Source: Minisyncoccota bacterium (GTDB lineage: Bacteria > Patescibacteriota > Minisyncoccia > UBA6257 > JAGOQP01). Taken from it: DNA of 64,000 nucleotides. The stretch lies in contig JAGOQP010000002.1 in NCBI GenBank assembly GCA_017991375.1, forward strand, positions 2,259 to 66,258, written 5' to 3'. Of the stretch, positions 11,130-54,870 are shown in pieces. Position 1 is the first letter of the stretch. Each line of letters begins with the position of its first letter. Both the position numbers and the translations under genes were made by a program. Below the pieces are notes generated by a model, which saw only the letters and a program-made list of their open reading frames with translations, had not been told where the DNA came from and ran no database searches.

Positions 11130-11298
11130 TTCAACGTTCAACTTTCCACACCCCGTCCACTCTTCGGCTTGCCCTGTTCTCACTCGTTTAACTTTCCACT
11201 TTCCACTCGTTCGTACCCCCGAGAGGAATATCCTTCGCCTCTCGTTTCGCCTTGCTTTCGTTCGTTTAACTTTCCACTTTTCACTTTCCACTCGTTCG
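11130..11298 (-). repeat. tRNA-Arg(CCU) 3'-flank element: GGAAAGTTAAACGA-type repeats plus a duplicated tRNA 3' end
   Basis: Bottom strand reads tRNA - CGAACGAGTGGAAAGTGAAAAGTGGAAAGTTAAACGAA - CGAAACGAGAGGCGAAGGA - TATTCCTCTCGGGGGTA (copy of the tRNA 3' 17 nt, top-strand 11215-11231) - further GGAAAGTTAAACGA repeats; same architecture as at 26205-26436. Confidence 0.7.
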
Positions 11299-11371
11299 TA
11301 CCCCCGAGAGGAATCGAACCTCTATCTATCCCTTAGGACGGGACTGTTCTAATCCGTTGAACTACGAGGGT
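11299..11371 (-). tRNA. tRNA-Arg (anticodon CCU)
   Basis: Reverse-complement: acceptor ACCCTCG/CGGGGGT, D-arm GTTC-AACGGATTA-GAAC, anticodon stem GTCCC/GGGAT with loop GTCCTAA, T-arm AGAGG-TTCGATT-CCTCT; 73 nt. Confidence 0.75.
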
Positions 11372-13013
11372 TTATAAGCAAAAAACACGTTGAAAACAGC
11401 CCTTGGGTATTGTATGCTAAGTGCGCATAAAAATTCAAATACCATGGGCCTATGGTATACCGGTAGAACGCCTCCATGGCATGGAGGAGAACGGGGTTCA
11501 ATTCCCCGTAGGTCCACCAAAGTTGATTAGTCGCCTCGCTCGGCGCTTCGCGCCTCGCTTCGGCAGGCATTTCCGCAAGGAAATGCCAAGGGTTTTTGAA
11601 ATCAATCGTCAATTTTCCCGCCGCAAGGCGGCGGTTCGAGCCGATGGTTTTGAGAAAATTTTTCATTTCCGAAAAATTTTCAGACAAAATGAGATTTTTG
11701 GCTTGGTTGGCCTCTAAAATCCAATTTCGGGTGAGTTCGAGCCAATGATTTCCTTTTCGCTCAAAATCCGATAATTTTTCCTCAATATCTTTCTTTTCCG
11801 CCATTAGTTTGTTTTTCTTTTCCTGAAATTCCGCCAGTTCAAAACTGCCTTCAAGATAGCCGTCCATTAAGCGGTCTATTTTTGTTTTTATGGCGGAAAG
11901 TTCGGTTTTAAGATTTTGAGCGAAAAGGTCTGATGTTTGGCGGTTTTCGCTTTCCCATTCTTTCACTTTGCAAAGATATTTTTCCCGCCAAACATCGGGC
12001 AAAGAAACTTTTTGACAAATCTCTTTTACTTGCTCGGTCAAAACTTCTTCCCGCAAAAAGCGAGCTTGAGAACAATTTTGCGTTTTGCTTTTGTGGGTGC
12101 AACGATAATAAACAAATTTTAGTCCGCTTTTCTTGATGTGCCGTTCGGCTGTTATGGCATATCCGCACTCGCCACAAACCGCAAAATTGAGAAATTGAAA
12201 GTTTTTCGGTCCTCGCTTTTTGCGGGGCTTGCCGTTTGTGATTAACGCTTCTTGTATTTGGTCAAAAAGTTTCTTTGAAATCATTGGCTTATGCGATCCT
12301 TGATGAATTTCGCCACGATAGCGAAAATGTCCGTAATAGAATGGATTAGTCAAAATTTTCTGAATGGTGGAAAGATGAGGCAGTTTCCCGTCTTTGCCAA
12401 CCAAGCCAAGAGAAAACATTTTGCCTTGAATAGCGGTAAGCGTGTAATTGCCAGTGGCAAAAGCCCGCAAAACTTCTTTCACTTTGTTAAAAGTTTTTCT
12501 ATCGGGTTCTATAGTTCGCAGACGAGGTTCGTTGAAATATCCGAGCGGGGCTTTTGCCGATAGCTCACCGCGTCTTATTTTCTGCCTGATTCCGCGCAAA
12601 ATGTTTTCTCTTAAATTGTCGGTGTAATACTTTGCTTGTCCGAAGGCGACAGACAACATAAATTTTCCCTGCGGTGTCGCTTCAAACCAAAATGTGGGGA
12701 ATTTTAGCGATTCAATCTTTTTTGTGTCCACAAGGTAAATTACTTTTCCGCCGTCTATTGAATTTCTAGCCAATCTATCGGGATTCCACGCTAAAATTCC
12801 CGAAGCGTTGCCTTTTTCAATTTCCGAAAGCATAAAATTAAAAACTTCTCGGCCCGGCTCTTTGGCTGTTTTGCTTTCGTAAAATTCTTTGACGACAAAA
12901 AGATTGTTTTGTTTGGCAAACTCGCGAAGTTCCGTGAGCTGGGCCTCAATAGACAAAACTTGTCTTTCCTCGTCCTCGCTTGATTTGCGACAATAGATAA
13001 AGTATTTTATCAT
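11349..13013 (-). CDS. large serine recombinase (resolvase/invertase N-terminal domain + recombinase domain + zinc ribbon + coiled coil)
   Basis: N-terminus MIKYFIYCRKSSEDEERQVLSIEAQ...AWNPDRLARN (serine-recombinase catalytic domain); CGECGYAITAERH...YYRCTHK zinc ribbon. The ORF has no stop until 11349, so it reads through IR-A, antisense tRNA-Ala and into tRNA-Arg; the true C-terminus is probably upstream (~455 aa to the IR boundary). Confidence 0.85.
   Translation of the reverse strand: MIKYFIYCRKSSEDEERQVLSIEAQLTELREFAKQNNLFVVKEFYESKTAKEPGREVFNFMLSEIEKGNASGILAWNPDRLARNSIDGGKVIYLVDTKKIESLKFPTFWFEATPQGKFMLSVAFGQAKYYTDNLRENILRGIRQKIRRGELSAKAPLGYFNEPRLRTIEPDRKTFNKVKEVLRAFATGNYTLTAIQGKMFSLGLVGKDGKLPHLSTIQKILTNPFYYGHFRYRGEIHQGSHKPMISKKLFDQIQEALITNGKPRKKRGPKNFQFLNFAVCGECGYAITAERHIKKSGLKFVYYRCTHKSKTQNCSQARFLREEVLTEQVKEICQKVSLPDVWREKYLCKVKEWESENRQTSDLFAQNLKTELSAIKTKIDRLMDGYLEGSFELAEFQEKKNKLMAEKKDIEEKLSDFERKGNHWLELTRNWILEANQAKNLILSENFSEMKNFLKTIGSNRRLAAGKLTIDFKNPWHFLAEMPAEARREAPSEATNQLWWTYGELNPVLLHAMEAFYRYTIGPWYLNFYAHLAYNTQGLFSTCFLLINPRSSTD
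11446..11519 (+). tRNA. tRNA-Ala (anticodon GGC), CCA encoded
   Basis: Acceptor GGGCCTA/TAGGTCC with the G3:U70 Ala identity pair; anticodon stem CCTCC/GGAGG with loop ATGGCAT; T-arm CGGGG-TTCAATT-CCCCG; ends ACCA. Confidence 0.8.
11514..11637. repeat. IR-A left copy (124 bp)
   Basis: Reverse complement of 13156-13279 with 2-3 mismatches; contains hairpins GGCATTTCC-gcaa-GGAAATGCC and CCGCCGC-aa-GGCGGCGG; outer end overlaps the tRNA-Ala CCACCA. Confidence 0.9.
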
Positions 13014-26436: not shown

Positions 26437-26663
26437 TCGTTGGTCATTGATTCTTAACCGCAAGACACTCATCTTTAATCGAGAGAGATGGTAGTTAGTT
26501 TTAAGATCAATCCTTGCGTAAGCACTGTTTTCGTATTAGAATACGTTTTGCGTATTTTTATTAATCCCAGTCACTGGTTGTCTGTTGTTAGTCGTTTGTT
26601 GTCTGCCTACGGCAGATCCTGAGCGTAAGTCGAAGGGTAAGTTACTCATATGCCGCGGTAGCT

Positions 26664-26765: not shown

Positions 26766-26872
26766 GCCGCGGTAGCTCAGTGGGTTTAAAGCAAACGATT
26801 TTGCTTTAAACGGGAAATCCAAAAGATATATTGGATTTTCCCTGGAAGAACAGAAAACCGAAGGTCTGCGAT
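26766..26872 (+). repeat. tRNA 5'-associated element: duplicated tRNA-Phe 5' end (18 nt) plus conserved two-hairpin module
   Basis: GCCGCGGTAGCTCAGTGG, then GTTTAAAGCAAACGATTTTGCTTTAAAC (hairpin), GGGAAATCCAAAAGATATATTGGATTTTCCC (hairpin), TGGAAGAACAGAAAACCGAAGGTCTGCGAT; about 90% identical module at 51838-51948 led by the tRNA-Thr 5' end. Confidence 0.8.
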
Positions 26873-26923
26873 ACGAAAGCACAAGACAATAAAGATATAT
26901 AAAAGCAACAATAGAAATAATAT

Positions 26924-49380: not shown

Positions 49381-50139
49381 ATGAGTGATCAAAAAAACGA
49401 TCAGAAACAGTCAGCGGGGAGTTTGTTTATTGACGCAAGCGCTCTGTTTGGGGGTTCGGAGGTGGATGATGCCACGCTACTTGAAATGGCACAGGCGGGA
49501 GTTTTATATGGACATAAGAAATCACGCCGCAACCCACGTTTTGGTGAGTATATCTTTACCACACGAAACGGCGTTGAGGTGCTCGATTTGGTAAAAACAG
49601 CAAAAGCGATTGATTTTGTGGCAGGTCTTATTAAGAAAGGAAAAGAAGACAAAAAGAATTTTATTATTGTCGGTACGCAGCCGGCGGCACATGATTCGAT
49701 AAAAGCGCTCTCGCAGGCATTAGGCGACTGTCCGTTTGTTATTAACAAATGGATTGGAGGTCTTATTACTAATTTTAGCGTGCTTTCAAAGCGTATCACG
49801 TACTACAAACAGCAAAAGCAGGGATTGGAAGAAAAGAAATTCGAAGGATACACCAAAAAAGAACGCTTAATGATCGCGCGCGAGGTTGAAAAAATGCAGG
49901 GACGATTTTCTGGATTTGAAAATATTGAGGGCATTCCCGACATTATGATAGTGATCGATGGAAGCATTAAAGGACACGCGACTGCTATTCACGAGGCGCG
50001 TCTCAAGAAAGTGAAAGTGTTTGGTATTATTGACAGCGATGACAACCCGGGTGACTTTGATTACTTCATCCCAGCAAATGATCATGCTCGATCGTCGATC
50101 TCATGGGTGATAAATCGGATCATCCAAAAGATTGCTTAG
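49381..50139 (+). CDS. rpsB: 30S ribosomal protein S2
   Basis: GVLYGHKKSRRNPRFGEYIFTTRNGVEVLDL. Confidence 0.9.
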   Translation: MSDQKNDQKQSAGSLFIDASALFGGSEVDDATLLEMAQAGVLYGHKKSRRNPRFGEYIFTTRNGVEVLDLVKTAKAIDFVAGLIKKGKEDKKNFIIVGTQPAAHDSIKALSQALGDCPFVINKWIGGLITNFSVLSKRITYYKQQKQGLEEKKFEGYTKKERLMIAREVEKMQGRFSGFENIEGIPDIMIVIDGSIKGHATAIHEARLKKVKVFGIIDSDDNPGDFDYFIPANDHARSSISWVINRIIQKIA

Positions 50140-50171
50140 TAAATACATTTAATCAAACAGCACACAGTACT

Positions 50172-50612
50172 ATGAACGATGCTATTGTTCGTTTGCGCGA
50201 AGAGACGGGCGCGGGGGTTATGGATTGTAAACGCGCGCTTGATGACGCGCAGGGGGATTTGGATAAGGCGCGGACGCTTATTTTTGAGCGCGGTGCCGCC
50301 AAAGCGGAGAAAAAAGCAGAGCGTAAAACAGGTTCGGGGCTTTTGGAAACATATGTCCACAACAACCGCGTGGGGGTATTACTAGAATTGCGCTGTGAAA
50401 CTGATTTTGTGGCGCGTACTGACGCGTTTAAAACACTCGCTCACGATATCGTGATGCAAATTGCTTCTATGAATCCACAAAGCGTTGATGAATTGCTGAC
50501 ACAAGAATTTATCAAAGACAGCGCGATTACTATCAATGAATTAGTAACACGGGCAATCGCGTCAATTGGAGAAAATATCAAAATTGAGCGATTCTGCCGG
50601 TACGAGTTATAG
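50172..50612 (+). CDS. tsf: elongation factor Ts (short form)
   Basis: MNDAIVRLREETGAGVMDCKRALDDAQGDLDKARTLI; start at the internal ATG. Confidence 0.85.
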   Translation: MNDAIVRLREETGAGVMDCKRALDDAQGDLDKARTLIFERGAAKAEKKAERKTGSGLLETYVHNNRVGVLLELRCETDFVARTDAFKTLAHDIVMQIASMNPQSVDELLTQEFIKDSAITINELVTRAIASIGENIKIERFCRYEL

Positions 50613-51660: not shown

Positions 51661-51837
51661 CAACTATCTGGACTTTTTTTATAATTTGAATACAATTATA
51701 ACGTGGTTCCAGATGCTTTATCGCTTGCTGTCTGTCTACGGCAGGTTCTGACTGGTGGTGAGTATAATCGAACCAGTAAGTGAAACGCATTGAAGGGTAG
51801 GTGATCGGTAGTTAGTTGTAAGTTGTTAGTTACATAT

Positions 51838-51948
51838 GCCAATGTAGCTCAGCTGGGTTTAAAGCAAACAATTTTGCTTTAAACGGGAAATCCAAAAAGA
51901 TATATTGGACTTTCCCCGGAAGAGCAAGCAACCGAAGGTATTGCGATG
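51838..51948 (+). repeat. tRNA 5'-associated element: duplicated tRNA-Thr(GGU) 5' end (19 nt) plus conserved two-hairpin module
   Basis: GCCAATGTAGCTCAGCTGG, then GTTTAAAGCAAACAATTTTGCTTTAAACGGGAAATCCAAAAAGATATATTGGACTTTCCCCGGAAGAGCAAGCAACCGAAGGTATTGCGATG; the intact tRNA begins 47 nt later. Confidence 0.8.
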
Positions 51949-51995
51949 TCATGCACATTTATATACAGTACAATCAAGTCTGGAAATAAGCACTT

Positions 51996-52262
51996 GCCAA
52001 TGTAGCTCAGCTGGTAGAGCAACTCCATGGTAGAATAAACACTGCCCACTGTCTGAGAAATTAAACAGTGAATCCCGAATGACGGTCAAAAGCCTGTGCA
52101 GGCCAAGACCGTTCCGCTCAAAGCGGACGAACGACTGACAAGGGTGACTAAATTCACTTTTGGTGAACAAGTCAAAGATACAGTCTAATCCTCAAATAAG
52201 CATTGTATAAATTGGGGTAGAAATGAAGGAGTAGGTCGCCGGTTCAATTCCGGCCATTGGCT
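51996..52262 (+). tRNA. tRNA-Thr (anticodon GGU) interrupted by a ~194-nt group I-like intron in the anticodon loop
   Basis: 5' exon GCCAATG-TA-GCTC-AGCTGGTA-GAGC-A-ACTCC-ATGGT (ends at 52031, U36); 3' exon AA-GGAGT-AGGTC-GCCGG-TTCAATT-CCGGC-CATTGGC-T (from 52226); the exons splice to a 73-nt tRNA. Confidence 0.6.
52032..52225 (+). ncRNA. group I-like intron in tRNA-Thr(GGU)
   Basis: Preceded by U and ends in G (omega-G); contains GGGTGACTAAAT (R-like, GACTA) and CAAAGATACAGTCTAATCC (S-like, compare AAGATATAGTCC), the P7-forming elements of group I introns. Splice junctions inferred, not computed. Confidence 0.5.
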
Positions 52263-52275
52263 CTCTGTAGATTTT

Positions 52276-54870
52276 ATGTGCAAAAAACATATGGTTAATA
52301 AAAACACTTCGCTCATATTTTTCTTTTGCCTATTTATTTTTTTTATATACGTAGAACACGTTCATGGAGCAGTTACGCTGGATTCTGTTAATGGTATATA
52401 TACAAATGATTTTAATACTAATACTGGCTTATACCAAACAAACAAAGCCAAAATCGACGTGAGCGATGGGAAACTTAAATTAACCAATGCAACTAATACA
52501 TCTATTTTTACCGCTCCGTTCGCGACCTCTGGTTACGCGATTCTTTCAGCTATCACTCCCTCAAGTACAGCCGCATGGGGGACGCTTTCTTTAAATTTTC
52601 AAAAACCAACAAGCACGCAGATTTTATTTCAAGTACTTGATGGTGGGTACTATGCTTATGACGATACATTAGTAGCGGGCAATTCGACTGGTTTTTCAAG
52701 CTCATCAACTAACTTTTCGACACTGTCGATAACTCAAACGGGAAATAGTAGCGGAAGCGCAAAATATGGCAAAATCTCCTTCAAATTATTATTATCTACC
52801 TCTGACGCCAGTACTACGCCATCAATTGATGACTTATCTTTTTCATGGGCAGTAAATCAAGGAGACCTAAGCACGTCAACGCCAAAAGAGAGTATATGGT
52901 ACAACCAACAGGGAGACAACCAAGGGACTCAACGCGCTCGAGTCGATTATGGTATTTTATACCCCTCTATACGATGGGTAAAAACCTCGATGCCTGGTGA
53001 TGGATATGGACATTTTTTAAGAGGGTCGGGGGATACCATATACCATAAGTCAGTAGGCGGGCTTGTTTCGTGGCCCTGGATGACTGATGGGGTGCTTAGA
53101 AAATTAAACAGACACACTGGGGAGATAGTTTGGGAAAAAAAGTTTTCTGGCTATTCGTACTCTAATACTGATATGGCCTTATCTCAAAATGATACTATTT
53201 ATAATTCGGATATCTATTCAGATATCATGGTAGCGCTTGATGGTTCTGATGGGAGTGTAAAGTGGACATATCAGTTTAGCGGCGGGCATGGCAATCAGGA
53301 TGTGGTCATTGGTCCGGATGGGTCTATCTATACCATGCGATATGATAACACCACTTATTTAACCGTATATGCTTTTAACGCGAACGGTACGGTGAGATGG
53401 ACTAAAACTATCGTTCCCCCTGGCTCAACTTTTGGCGGATCGCCTATCTCTTTGGCGTCTGATGGAAGTACTCTCTATTTTGGGACGTACTCAAAAAGTG
53501 GAGCAAATTTTACCAATAATGGATTGTTGTATGCTCTAAATACATCAGATGGCTCCATAAAATGGACATATCCAAGTGGTGATTTTGGCTCTACTATATT
53601 TACATCGCCCATTGTGGACGTTGATGGGTCTATTTATATTACAAACTCTGTTCCAACTGAATACAGAAAAAGGATAACCGCGGTTACCTCTGACGGCTCA
53701 CTTAAATGGGAATATTCAATTGGTACTACTACTGATTTTTGGAGAGGCATGGCTCTAAGAGAAGATGGTGTGTTACTCGTGGAACGTTTTCCATCACTCT
53801 TTTACTTGCCCTTTTCAACGGGCTTAATAGAGGCCATTAATATAAACGATGGATCACTTTTGTGGTCAAAAACAACAAGTGACCATGGAAATACTACAGG
53901 GGGCGACTCGTTTGTGACAAACAACGCTGAAGGATTATTCCGTGCCTATTCGGTTTCCGCGCCGTCTCCAACCAGCACCTTTTTTTCTTACTATGATGCA
54001 CAAGGGAATGAAAAGTGGTCTATTAACAAAATTGACAACTCCTTAACTGATTACATTAGATTTTACAGAAGTATGCAAGATGAAGATGGATGGGTGTACG
54101 TAGATGGATGGGGGTCATCTTCAAGCGTGCTTATGGGCATTGCTCCGTGGACATTGAATGCCTCATTAGACAGAACAGACGCGTATCAAACCGATACCAT
54201 TGTTATTACGGCGACGTCATCAATGCAACAAATAAGCCCGCTTACTAATCAAGTAAATAAAATTCAGATTGTTTTTGATAATGGAGCGACTATTCCACTT
54301 GTGTATAATTCAAGCGATGATTCGGGAAATAACATATGGAGGGGAACATATACCATTCCGACAACGTACGAAGCCGGTGTTCACCAGTATACCGTGGAGG
54401 CTGGCGCCGCTGAAATTAGAACAGATATAACGACTAGATTTAGTGAGCCGGCGAATAATTCTAATAATACTGGTATCACTTTAACGGGTTCATTTAATAT
54501 CAAAAGAGTTGGAGGCGCGCTTCCCTCATATAAAAATACAGCTCAATCAAGTGGCATAGCGTTAAAGCTCAACAACGCAGAACAACAAAAGGGAAACTTA
54601 TCTACGGGAACACAAATTAGTTTATCTATTACAAAAACATTGAGGTTTGGTATGATTGATCCTCAAGTAATAATTGCGCAGAAAATACTGCAAAAAGTTG
54701 GTACGCTATCAAAAGAAATTACACCAATAAATATCTTTGGCCCCAAGACGCTTAAGGCGGTAAAACAATTTCAGGTGCAAAAAAGAATCGCATTTTCTGG
54801 ATTAGCGGGGTATGGTCAAATTGGCCCCAAGACAAGAAAGGCACTGAACGAAATGAACATTCGAGATTAG
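52276..54870 (+). CDS. secreted beta-propeller (PQQ/BamB-like repeats) protein with C-terminal peptidoglycan-binding domain
   Basis: Signal peptide; repeated DGS(I/V)KWTY / GEIVWEKKF motifs; C-terminus ...AQKILQKVGTLSKEITPINIFGPKTLKAVKQFQVQKRIAFSGLAGYGQIGPKTRKAL (PG_binding_1-like). Confidence 0.65.
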   Translation: MCKKHMVNKNTSLIFFFCLFIFFIYVEHVHGAVTLDSVNGIYTNDFNTNTGLYQTNKAKIDVSDGKLKLTNATNTSIFTAPFATSGYAILSAITPSSTAAWGTLSLNFQKPTSTQILFQVLDGGYYAYDDTLVAGNSTGFSSSSTNFSTLSITQTGNSSGSAKYGKISFKLLLSTSDASTTPSIDDLSFSWAVNQGDLSTSTPKESIWYNQQGDNQGTQRARVDYGILYPSIRWVKTSMPGDGYGHFLRGSGDTIYHKSVGGLVSWPWMTDGVLRKLNRHTGEIVWEKKFSGYSYSNTDMALSQNDTIYNSDIYSDIMVALDGSDGSVKWTYQFSGGHGNQDVVIGPDGSIYTMRYDNTTYLTVYAFNANGTVRWTKTIVPPGSTFGGSPISLASDGSTLYFGTYSKSGANFTNNGLLYALNTSDGSIKWTYPSGDFGSTIFTSPIVDVDGSIYITNSVPTEYRKRITAVTSDGSLKWEYSIGTTTDFWRGMALREDGVLLVERFPSLFYLPFSTGLIEAININDGSLLWSKTTSDHGNTTGGDSFVTNNAEGLFRAYSVSAPSPTSTFFSYYDAQGNEKWSINKIDNSLTDYIRFYRSMQDEDGWVYVDGWGSSSSVLMGIAPWTLNASLDRTDAYQTDTIVITATSSMQQISPLTNQVNKIQIVFDNGATIPLVYNSSDDSGNNIWRGTYTIPTTYEAGVHQYTVEAGAAEIRTDITTRFSEPANNSNNTGITLTGSFNIKRVGGALPSYKNTAQSSGIALKLNNAEQQKGNLSTGTQISLSITKTLRFGMIDPQVIIAQKILQKVGTLSKEITPINIFGPKTLKAVKQFQVQKRIAFSGLAGYGQIGPKTRKALNEMNIRD

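What the first reader, a model, noticed from the sequence alone, without database searches (positions are those of the whole stretch)
51996..52262. Group I-like intron splitting the anticodon loop of tRNA-Thr(GGU)
The 5' half of a tRNA (through ACTCC-ATGGU) and the 3' half (AA-GGAGT...CATTGGC) are separated by 194 nt. The insert follows a U, ends in G, and contains P7-type R/S-like elements (GACTA ... AAGATACAGTCT). Known tRNA group I introns are best described in tRNA-Leu(UAA), tRNA-fMet, tRNA-Arg and tRNA-Ile; a tRNA-Thr host would be unusual.
Basis: partly seen in the sequence, partly recalled or inferred. Interest (0 to 1): 0.6.

Follow-up and report, generated by a model that had tools for sequence, protein, structure and literature searches.

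The report
Group I intron in tRNA-Thr gene
A threonine tRNA gene of an uncultured Paceibacteria (Patescibacteria/CPR) bacterium is split by a compact 194-base group I intron, which is real and well supported but belongs to an intron family already reported in this phylum, so it is an ordinary new member.

Summary
Window 51996-52262 is a tRNA-Thr(GGU) gene interrupted between nucleotides 36 and 37 by a 194-nt insert (52032-52225) that follows a U and ends in G.

An intron-less gene at the same syntenic place in a related genome is 100% identical to the two joined halves.

The insert is a group I intron. One pattern scan found it in 115 species-representative genomes, nearly all labelled Patescibacteria, and wherever a tRNA could be called the host was tRNA-Thr(GGU) at the same site. 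Across 72 sequences the P1-P9 fold, including the P3/P7 pseudoknot, pairs in 93% of cells with abundant compensatory changes. A profile built without the window finds it at E=3e-43.

Rfam RF00028 scores only 15.5 bits. This is the behaviour already published for this "divergent" class (Nakagawa et al. 2026, three genomes). A tRNA-Thr host is therefore not unusual in this phylum.

Self-splicing is inferred, not shown.

Side findings:
- In about 40% of related loci a LAGLIDADG-like gene sits directly upstream of the tRNA. The window has no copy.
- The window carries "ghost" copies of tRNA ends next to small repeated elements.

The parts
51996..52031 (+). 5' exon of tRNA-Thr(GGU): acceptor 5' strand, D arm, anticodon stem 5' strand, loop A-U and anticodon G-G-U. 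It ends at U36 (U52031), the U of the U.G wobble at the 5' splice site.
   Evidence: It is 100% identical to L009 6064-6100.
52032..52225 (+). Group I intron, 194 nt, with no ORF.
   Evidence: ARAGORN with introns allowed. Leave-one-out family HMM E=3.2e-43. Covariation analysis.
52226..52262 (+). 3' exon: A37, A38, anticodon stem 3' strand, variable loop, T arm, acceptor 3' strand and discriminator U. No CCA is encoded.
   Evidence: It is 100% identical to L009 6100-6136.
52029..52046 (+). P1: exon G-G-U plus intron A-G (52029-52033) paired with the internal guide C-U-G-C-C (52042-52046). U52031.G52044 is the splice-site wobble.
   Evidence: Exon GGU pairs with GCC in 71-72 of 72 sequences (helix 1). 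RNAalifold also predicts it. The distal P1 extension covaries by eye across homologs.
52047..52070 (+). P2 hairpin (52047-52056 with 52061-52070), capped by a GAAA tetraloop at 52057-52060.
   Evidence: 8 of 9 pairs have changes on both sides. The loop is GNRA in 68 of 72 sequences.
52074..52076 (+). P3 5' strand (CCC). It pairs with GGG at 52142-52144 and forms the pseudoknot with P7.
   Evidence: 98% of cells paired. C-G changes to U-A in 6 and 3 sequences at two of the three pairs (helix 3).
52082..52127 (+). P4 (52082-52087 with 52107-52112), P5 (52092-52095 with 52100-52103) and P6 (52113-52117 with 52123-52127). The conserved J4/5 adenines are at 52088-52089.
   Evidence: P4 is invariant. 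P5 and P6 each have 4 of 5 pairs with changes on both sides. RNAalifold predicts all three.
52131..52137 (+). P7 5' strand: A52131, bulged C52132, then GACUG at 52133-52137. This is the presumed guanosine-binding helix.
   Evidence: It pairs with 52181-52186. It is invariant in the set because the search pattern fixed it, so covariation says nothing here (helix 7). The A-bulge-GACU shape matches the classical group I 'R' element (own knowledge).
52142..52144 (+). P3 3' strand (GGG).
   Evidence: helix 3.
52145..52174 (+). P8 hairpin: 52145-52149 with 52170-52174, and 52153-52157 with 52163-52167.
   Evidence: 9 of 10 pairs have changes on both sides (helices 8 and 9).
52175..52186 (+). J8/7 (AAGAUA) followed by the P7 3' strand CAGUCU (52181-52186). 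This is the 'S'-type element.
   Evidence: It is the only stretch that RF00028 aligns with high confidence. It is invariant in the family.
52190..52217 (+). P9 hairpin (CCUCAA at 52190-52195 with UUGGGG at 52212-52217).
   Evidence: 5 of 6 pairs have changes on both sides (helix 10).
52225..52225 (+). Omega-G, the last intron nucleotide. The preceding A-U is invariant.
   Evidence: G in 92 of 93 ARAGORN Thr(ggt) calls. A-U-G is invariant in A1.
51838..51995 (+). Not part of the intron. This is a 'ghost' copy of tRNA nucleotides 1-19/20 (51838-51857) followed by a 138-nt repeated element (51858-51995) that ends at the real tRNA.
   Evidence: Exact repeat. The first 90 nt of the element recur at 26785-26872, behind a ghost of tRNA-Phe. 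The element is conserved in L005 and L007 with one compensatory change in its first hairpin.

Best explanation
This is a functional tRNA-Thr(GGU) gene of a Paceibacteria (Patescibacteria/CPR) genome, interrupted between nucleotides 36 and 37 by a compact, ORF-less group I intron. The intron belongs to a family tied to this tRNA and this site across the phylum. The proposed mechanism follows. The precursor is transcribed and the intron folds into P1-P9 around the P3/P7 pseudoknot core. The internal guide 5'-CUGCC (52042-52046) pairs with exon G-G-U plus the first two intron bases, so that U52031.G52044 marks the 5' splice site. A free guanosine bound in P7 (the G52133-C52185 region with bulged C52132) attacks after U52031. 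Omega-G (G52225) then takes its place, and the freed 3'-OH of U36 attacks the 3' splice site. This joins GGU to AA and restores the anticodon loop A-U-G-G-U-A-A. End processing and CCA addition then give mature tRNA. Shown: the exon and intron boundaries, membership in the family, and the secondary structure. Inferred: catalysis and self-sufficiency of splicing.
For: Boundaries:
- An intron-less allele with 100% identical exons sits at the same syntenic position (tsf, hypothetical gene, tRNA-Tyr, tRNA-Thr(UGU), tRNA-Thr(GGU)) in L009. L011 is also intron-less there.

Family:
- One pattern scan of species-representative genomes found 115 loci.
- 106 of these give an interrupted-tRNA call. 93 are called Thr(ggt); the other 13 show GG(T)|...G|AA... 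junctions of the same type (CCATGG, CATTGG or TCCATG stems) and were mis-called by a shifted boundary.
- A U precedes and a G ends the intron in 91 of 93. Intron length is 165-261 nt, median 197.
- A leave-one-out HMM hits the window once at E=3.2e-43.

Structure:
- With my P1-P9 model on 72 sequences, 93.3% of cells pair, against 29-46% when partners are slid.
- 615 cells carry changes on both sides, against 166+/-16 in shuffles, and 0 of 500 shuffles reach the observed value for any measure.
- Covariation is seen in P2, P3, P5, P6, P8 and P9.
- RNAalifold independently predicts P1, P2, P4-P9 and the anticodon stem.
- L2 is GNRA in 68 of 72 sequences.

Group I hallmarks present: the U.G wobble, omega-G, the P3/P7 pseudoknot, a bulge-containing P7, A-rich J4/5 and J8/7, and an RF00028 alignment of AAGAUACAGUCUAAUC to the model's J8/7-P7.

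Literature:
- tRNA-Thr(GGU) 36/37 group I introns are reported in three complete Patescibacteria genomes, at least two of them Paceibacteria. They are missed by RF00028, found by the tFind model, and group with IA-type Patescibacteria tRNA introns.
Against: - RF00028 reaches only 15.5 bits (gathering score 50, E=0.24) and aligns most of the model wrongly. None of 17 relatives is hit at E<=1.
- No splicing experiment exists for the Thr class, and none for this locus. PMC13011429 tested only Asn and Asp introns.
- P7 and P4 never vary in my set. P7 was fixed by the search pattern, so the catalytic helix itself has no covariation support.
- P1 has only 3 base pairs with the exon. P10 is at most 1-2 bp.
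- The window's P8 lacks the CUAAG...UAUG receptor-like motif seen in a strict-pattern minority of members (11 of 72).
- Only 64 kb of the genome is visible, so I cannot show that this is the only tRNA-Thr(GGU) gene.
Confidence: 0.92

Rival explanations
1. The RNA has a group I fold but is not self-sufficient. It would need a protein cofactor or chaperone, or splice too poorly alone, so 'self-splicing' would be wrong even though 'group I intron' is right.
For: The intron is very compact (194 nt) with few peripheral elements. P1 with the exon is short. RF00028 scores low. The literature describes the class as highly divergent and did not test it. The window's P8 departs from the receptor-like motif seen in some relatives.
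Against: All core helices and joining regions are conserved across at least 72 diverged sequences. A GNRA loop on P2 is kept in 68 of 72 sequences, which suggests RNA-RNA tertiary bracing. Similarly small tRNA introns such as Azoarcus (205 nt) self-splice (own knowledge). Related Patescibacteria tRNA introns self-splice in vitro (PMC13011429). No maturase-like gene lies in or beside the intron in the window.
Confidence: 0.1
2. The two halves are the remains of a tRNA gene destroyed by insertion of unrelated DNA. The locus would be a pseudogene.
For: The neighbourhood is full of partial tRNA copies. A 20-nt ghost of this tRNA's 5' end lies 158 nt upstream. Six of the window's eleven tRNA genes have ghost ends. 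Standard tRNA finders and Rfam do not call the gene.
Against: The exons are 100% identical to an intact gene in a relative. The insert sits at exactly the same position in more than 100 species, with U before it and G at its end. The insert evolves under base-pair constraint. The anticodon-stem pairs across the insert also covary (C-G to A-U in 6 sequences).
Confidence: 0.02
3. The insert is another kind of intervening sequence, such as a group II intron, an archaeal-type bulge-helix-bulge intron, or a small transposable element with a different removal route.
For: The weak RF00028 score. Small repeated elements do insert next to tRNA genes in this genome.
Against: 194 nt is far too short for a group II intron, and none were detected in the phylum (PMC13011429). 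The splice junctions do not form a bulge-helix-bulge, and the site is 36/37 with U and G ends. The intron has no other copy in the window. The conserved P3/P7 pseudoknot core with J8/7 AAGAUA is typical of group I.
Confidence: 0.01

Closest known systems
Patescibacteria tRNA-Thr(GGU) 36/37 'divergent group I introns' (Nakagawa et al. 2026, mSystems, PMC13011429; term credited there to Castelle et al. 2018)
   Same: Same host tRNA, same anticodon, same insertion site (36/37) and same phylum; the two of the three reported genomes whose class I could read are Paceibacteria, like the window. Both are missed by RF00028 and by default tRNA finders, both lack an internal ORF, and the lengths are similar (their range starts at 184 nt).
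   Different: The window is not one of the three complete genomes they list. Its source is a MAG contig of 108 kb. I could not align it to their three sequences because the stored copy of the supplementary workbook is truncated and holds no Thr(GGU) intron row, so identity with that class rests on the shared host, site, phylum and behaviour. The family is much larger than reported, with at least 115 species representatives.
[quoted passage not shown]
   Same: Same phylum, anticodon-loop location, small size, U before and G at the end. According to that paper the Thr introns branch with them in the IA tree.
   Different: Different host tRNAs and a site one nucleotide upstream. RF00028 detects them. 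Some carry an internal HNH endonuclease gene. They have been tested experimentally, whereas the Thr class has not.
Classical bacterial tRNA introns at 36/37: Azoarcus tRNA-Ile(CAU) and Agrobacterium tRNA-Arg(CCU), subgroup IC3 (Reinhold-Hurek and Shub 1992; own knowledge, and cited in PMC13011429)
   Same: The intron follows the third anticodon base, a U. P1 has 3 bp with the exon. The size is about 200 nt. A GNRA tetraloop caps P2. There is no ORF.
   Different: Different subgroup. The J8/7-P7 sequence here is AAGAUACAGUC (IA/IB-like 'S' element) rather than the IC3 type, and Nakagawa et al. found no IC introns in Patescibacteria tRNAs. The host tRNA and phylum also differ.
Intron plus free-standing homing endonuclease pairs ('collaborative' or trans homing), e.g. 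cyanophage S-PM2 psbA intron with F-CphI, and T4 mobE with I-TevIII (PMC6083498, PMC2790892; concept partly from own knowledge)
   Same: In about 40% of related loci an ORF with a LAGLIDADG-like fold lies directly beside the ORF-less intron-containing gene.
   Different: The window has no such ORF. Nuclease activity and target are untested. Here the host is a bacterial tRNA gene and the ORF overlaps the tRNA's 5' end.

Membership tests
Group I introns (as a class) | The 5' splice site follows a U that forms a U.G wobble in P1 with an internal guide sequence. | tested here: met
   U52031.G52044, with exon GG pairing to C52045-C52046. The U.G pair is present in 71 of 72 sequences and the two G-C pairs in 72 of 72. 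RNAalifold predicts it.
Group I introns (as a class) | The last intron nucleotide is G (omega-G). | tested here: met
   G52225. G ends 92 of 93 family calls. A-U-G is invariant in A1.
Group I introns (as a class) | A conserved core of P3-P8 and P4-P6 domains in the canonical order, with the P3/P7 pseudoknot. | tested here: met
   All helices are placed in canonical order. 93.3% of cells pair against 29-46% when slid. Changes on both sides occur in P2, P3, P5, P6, P8 and P9. P4 and P7 are invariant.
Group I introns (as a class) | A guanosine-binding pocket in P7 (a G-C pair next to a bulged nucleotide), with conserved J6/7 and J8/7. | tested here: inconclusive
   The sequence has the expected shape: A-c-GACUG with CAGUCU, J8/7 AAGAUA, J6/7 CGA. 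These positions never vary in my set, partly because the search pattern fixed them, so only resemblance is shown.
Group I introns (as a class) | Guanosine-dependent self-splicing by two transesterifications. | not testable with these tools
   This needs an in vitro splicing assay or RNA data. Related Asn and Asp introns were shown to splice (PMC13011429), but the Thr class was not.
Rfam RF00028 (Intron_gpI) | A covariance-model score at or above the gathering score (50 bits in this copy). | tested here: not met
   15.5 bits, E=0.24, and only the J8/7-P7-P9 end is aligned sensibly. There is no hit at E<=1 in 17 relatives. The paper reports the same failure for this class.
Patescibacteria tRNA-Thr(GGU) 36/37 intron family | The host is tRNA-Thr(GGU), with insertion between nucleotides 36 and 37. 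| tested here: met
   for the window. 93 of 106 calls are Thr(ggt), and the other 13 show the same type of junction mis-called by a shifted boundary.
Patescibacteria tRNA-Thr(GGU) 36/37 intron family | Sequence homology to other members over the full length. | tested here: met
   A leave-one-out profile HMM of 71 members covers model positions 1-203 on window 52025-52232, E=3.2e-43, with a single hit in 64 kb. The best pairwise identity is 78.6% (L043).
Patescibacteria tRNA-Thr(GGU) 36/37 intron family | The host organism is a member of Patescibacteria. | tested here: met
   The EF-Ts of the window is in the same 90%-identity cluster as MBP6855537.1, 'Candidatus Paceibacterota bacterium'. Gene content and synteny match Paceibacteria loci.
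Mobile group I intron with internal homing endonuclease | An endonuclease ORF inside the intron. | tested here: not met
   The intron is 194 nt with no ORF. The longest family member is 261 nt.

The most novel reading that the evidence does not exclude
The tRNA-Thr(GGU) intron may be the RNA half of a two-part mobile unit that the literature has missed because it looked for endonuclease genes only inside introns. About 44 of 106 related loci carry an uncharacterised ~195-aa protein immediately upstream on the same strand. So do 3 of 3 loci picked through the protein itself. The protein has an N-terminal helix-turn-helix and a C-terminal LAGLIDADG-like fold, and the family has at least 2,400 members, all annotated 'hypothetical'. 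In a large share of loci (about 15 of the ~44, plus all three picked through the protein) its stop codon appears to be the U8-A9-G10 of the tRNA, confirmed from gene calls in the three. If this protein cuts intron-less tRNA-Thr(GGU) genes, intron and endonuclease would spread together (collaborative homing). The window would then be a copy that has lost the endonuclease. Separately, family members as short as 175 nt would be among the smallest natural group I ribozymes if active.
Probability: 0.4. Interest if true: 0.55.

Novelty: new member of a known kind. Interest (0 to 1): 0.27.

Why it matters
For the window itself, little changes. The result rescues a tRNA-Thr(GGU) gene that standard annotation misses, which matters for tRNA inventories and completeness estimates of CPR genomes. 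It also adds one more example to a published intron class.

The comparative work adds more:
- The class is far more widespread than the three published cases, with at least 115 species representatives from a single strict pattern.
- It now has a covariation-supported P1-P9 model that could seed a proper covariance model, since RF00028 is blind to it.
- It is very compact (175-200 nt), which may interest ribozyme structural biologists.
- It is frequently coupled to a free-standing LAGLIDADG-like gene. This bears on the published inference that HEG-less tRNA introns in this phylum have limited mobility.

Tried and rejected
- Rfam at gathering thresholds over the whole window found tRNAs only.
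- Rfam at E<=10 on 51700-52400 gave RF00028 at 15.5 bits. Weak hits to DABA-DC-AT, Twister-P5 and others were taken as chance.
- An exact look-up of the 864-aa neighbour protein was not on record.
- blastn of the intron against 50,697 phage records in distant mode gave no match.
- The ViennaRNA single-sequence fold found P2, P4-P6 and P8. It paired 52072-52078 with 52211-52217, so it formed neither P3 nor P9 as the comparative data define them.
- Scans of metagenome and viral contigs for the upstream repeated element gave 0 hits.
- tblastn of that ORF family against the window found no remnant.
An HMM leave-one-out test was used instead.

Full report
**What is at the coordinates**

Reading the sequence directly shows a canonical tRNA 5' half at 51996-52031. 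It runs acceptor GCCAATG, D arm GCTC/GAGC, anticodon stem ACTCC, then A-T-G-G-T. A matching 3' half sits at 52226-52262: A-A, GGAGT, variable loop AGGTC, T arm GCCGG-TTCAATT-CCGGC, acceptor CATTGGC and discriminator T. The two halves are separated by 194 nt.

ARAGORN in its default mode and Rfam at gathering thresholds do not report the gene. The insert begins after U52031 and ends with G52225.

**Where the window comes from**

The neighbours are core bacterial genes: rpsB, a short tsf, trmD, a short SMC, dnaE, thrS, leuS, gyrB and gatB. The EF-Ts clusters at 90% identity or more with MBP6855537.1 of a 'Candidatus Paceibacterota bacterium' MAG, whose longest contig is 108 kb. Its homologs are named Paceibacteria, Wolfebacteria or Harrisonbacteria. 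The host is therefore a Patescibacteria (CPR) bacterium.

**Empty-site allele**

Loci retrieved through EF-Ts homologs keep the gene order SMC, rpsP, KH, trmD, rpsB, tsf, hypothetical gene, then tRNAs. In L009 (GCA_027423255.1) and L011, an uninterrupted tRNA-Thr(GGU) follows tRNA-Tyr and tRNA-Thr(UGU). The L009 gene is 100% identical to the window's two halves joined together.

This fixes the boundaries up to a one-base ambiguity, because an A occurs on both sides. The group I rule of U before and G at the end resolves that ambiguity. The result also shows that the exons encode a normal tRNA. L013 (GCA_021812345.1) has the interrupted form with an insert about 75% identical.

**The family**

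From the window/L013 comparison I took two conserved strings and scanned one genome per species with ACGACTGACAA-N(25-55)-ACAGTCTAAT. This gave 115 loci. Nearly all are MAGs labelled as Patescibacteria lineages. A few carry labels from binning projects such as Bdellovibrionales or Gammaproteobacteria.

- ARAGORN with introns allowed makes a call in 106 of the 115 loci.
- 93 of these are tRNA-Thr(ggt). The other 13 show GG(T)|...G|AA... junctions of the same type (CCATGG, CATTGG or TCCATG stems) with a mis-set boundary.
- A U precedes and a G ends the insert in 91 of 93.
- Lengths are 165-261 nt, median 197.
- Three more loci picked by a different route have variants my pattern could not match (ACAGTCTAGCC), so 115 is a lower bound.
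- A profile HMM built from 71 members without the window finds the window once, end to end, at E=3.2e-43.
- The closest member is only 78.6% identical.

**Structure**

I derived a P1-P9 model by hand and projected it on a MAFFT alignment of 72 sequences (alignment A1).

- 93.3% of cells form standard pairs, against 29-46% when the 3' partners are slid by 1-3 columns.
- 615 cells carry changes on both sides, against 166+/-16 in column shuffles.
- The covariation score is 0.41 against 0.15.
- None of 500 shuffles reaches the observed value for any measure.
- Pairs with changes on both sides: P2 (8 of 9), P3 (2 of 3), P5 (4 of 5), P6 (4 of 5), P8 (9 of 10) and P9 (5 of 6).
- P4 and P7 never vary. 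P7 was fixed by my pattern, so it is uninformative.

RNAalifold does not know my model and cannot draw pseudoknots. It independently returns P1, P2 and P4-P9, plus the two anticodon-stem pairs that close the whole intron, one of which shows C-G to A-U changes in 6 sequences.

P3 (52074-52076 with 52142-52144) crosses P7 (52131/52133-52137 with 52181-52186). This is the group I pseudoknot. Other hallmarks:
- the U52031.G52044 wobble in P1;
- an internal guide UGCC(C) that is nearly invariant;
- conserved adenines in J4/5;
- J8/7 with the sequence AAGAUA;
- a bulged nucleotide in P7;
- omega-G preceded by an invariant A-U;
- a GNRA loop on P2 in 68 of 72 sequences.

**Rfam**

RF00028 gives 15.5 bits (gathering score 50, E=0.24). 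It aligns only AAGAUACAGUCUAAUC and the P9 region sensibly. It finds none of 17 relatives at E<=1. It is in fact a documented weakness of the model.

**Literature**

Nakagawa et al. 2026 (PMC13011429) list tRNA-Thr(GGU) with a group I intron at 36/37 in three complete Patescibacteria genomes; the two whose class I could read in their supplement are Paceibacteria.
- RF00028 did not detect these introns. The tFind model gpI_bact_tRNA.cm of Williams 2020 did.
- They are called 'divergent group I introns', after Castelle et al. 2018.
- They group on a long branch with the IA-type Asn and Asp introns of the phylum, which the authors showed to self-splice in vitro.
- The Thr introns were not tested.
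- The authors report tRNA-intron lengths of 184-894 nt. They argue that, because most lack internal endonuclease genes, horizontal transfer is limited.

The kind of element is therefore published. The window's genome is not among the three complete genomes, so this is a new member of a known kind. The statement that a tRNA-Thr host is unusual does not hold for this phylum.

**Mechanism and confidence**

The most likely mechanism is standard group I splicing, as set out under the best explanation. The boundaries, family membership and fold are shown. Catalysis is inferred from the conserved architecture and from the activity of related introns.

The main rival that remains is that this very small, divergent ribozyme needs a helper protein. 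I give that about 0.1. A broken pseudogene or another intron type is excluded by the comparative data.

**Things found on the way**

(a) In about 44 of 106 family loci, an ORF of about 195 aa lies immediately upstream on the same strand.
- In about 15 of them the tblastn match to the ORF runs 2-4 nt into the tRNA, consistent with a stop at the TAG at tRNA positions 8-10.
- Three loci picked through the protein alone all have exactly that arrangement with an intron-containing tRNA-Thr(GGU).
- The two intron-less loci lack the ORF.
- The family has at least 2,413 members, all annotated 'hypothetical' and without a Pfam domain.
- An AlphaFold model (pLDDT 89) has an N-terminal HTH domain and a C-terminal domain.
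- Sequence methods and Foldseek were not significant, so the assignment is moderate.
- The window has no copy or remnant.

(b) The window has a 20-nt ghost of this tRNA's 5' end at 51838-51857, followed by a 138-nt element.
- The first 90 nt of that element recur at 26785-26872, behind an 18-nt ghost of tRNA-Phe.
- The element is conserved in a relative, with one compensatory change in its first hairpin.

These include four in the window. By eye the inserts share a layout of hairpin, inverted copy of the tRNA's own T arm, structured core and ghost.

I take (b) and (c) for scars or miniature derivatives of tRNA-targeting mobile elements. I did not resolve them.

**Verdict**

The element is real and almost certainly functional, but its kind is already described. 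Interest for the finding as given is low to moderate. The endonuclease association and the compactness of the family are the parts worth a specialist's attention.

Noticed in passing
window 51838-51995 and window 26766-26876 (also 26651-26663): A 'ghost' copy of the first 18-20 nt of a tRNA, ending in the D loop at ...AGCTCAG(C/T)GG, is followed by a shared ~90-nt element and then ~50 AT-rich nt before the real tRNA. The element has a 12-bp hairpin (GTTTAAAGCAAA/TTTGCTTTAAAC), a second hairpin (GGGAAATCC...GGAyTTTCCC), and an arm with the conserved loop CCGAAGG. The layout occurs upstream of both tRNA-Thr(GGU) and tRNA-Phe, and each ghost matches its own downstream tRNA. The ghost keeps the usual tRNA upstream region. 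It looks like an insertion with an ~19-nt target duplication, or a structured leader. The origin is unresolved.
   Followed up: partly
By eye, most inserts consist of a terminator-like hairpin, an inverted copy of that tRNA's own T loop and stem, a structured core and the direct ghost. The core is shared between the Tyr and Arg(TCT) inserts in the window, with a looser version after His (GAACGCCGGAGCTTGTGCGAG...GAGGCGG). They are possibly attachment-site scars or miniature tRNA-targeting elements.
   Followed up: partly
[not shown]
   Followed up: partly
L075 3078-3242, L087 7511-7671, L110 4371-4526, L124 237-341: About 160 nt upstream of the real intron-containing tRNA-Thr(GGU) lies a pseudo-copy. 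In L075, L087 and L110 it holds the complete 5' exon (through ...GGT), then a ~100-nt insert that is not group I-like, then the start of the 3' exon (AGGTCGCCGGTTC). blastn shows the insert is conserved between L087, L124 and part of L075, which belong to distant lineages; L110's insert gave no match.
   Followed up: no
L013 5893-5965 (same as L123): A chimeric pseudo-tRNA, with the 5' part of tRNA-Thr(GGU) fused to a 3' part resembling tRNA-Thr(UGU), lies just upstream of the LAGLIDADG-like ORF. The neighbouring tRNA-Thr(UGU) and tRNA-Tyr genes are inverted relative to the window. This is a sign of rearrangement around the endonuclease gene.
   Followed up: no
window 11298-13013 (minus strand): A 554-aa large serine recombinase (Resolvase, Recombinase and Zn-ribbon domains) ends inside the 5' part of tRNA-Arg(CCT) (11298-11371). 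That tRNA also has a 3' ghost 70 nt downstream. It is probably an integrated element using this tRNA as its attachment site.
   Followed up: no
L016, L028, L093 (labelled Bdellovibrionales), L089 (labelled Gammaproteobacteria), and many loci labelled 'Saccharibacteria': Several MAGs carrying this Patescibacteria-type intron pattern bear taxon labels from co-assembly binning projects that look inconsistent with the rest of the set. This may be mis-binning or mis-labelling. Three of the four (L016, L028, L093) gave no tRNA call in my scan; L089 was called tRNA-Thr(ggt).
   Followed up: no
L001-L008 (Logan contigs of the window's species and its closest relative): Short-read contigs repeatedly end inside or just after the tRNA cluster. 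L005 and L007 end within the first hairpins of the ghost element. This is consistent with the repeats and palindromes there breaking assemblies.
   Followed up: no
window 50103-50612: The longest ORF for tsf is 169 aa and overlaps rpsB by 37 nt. Nearly all homologs are 146 aa, so the real start is probably the downstream ATG.
   Followed up: no
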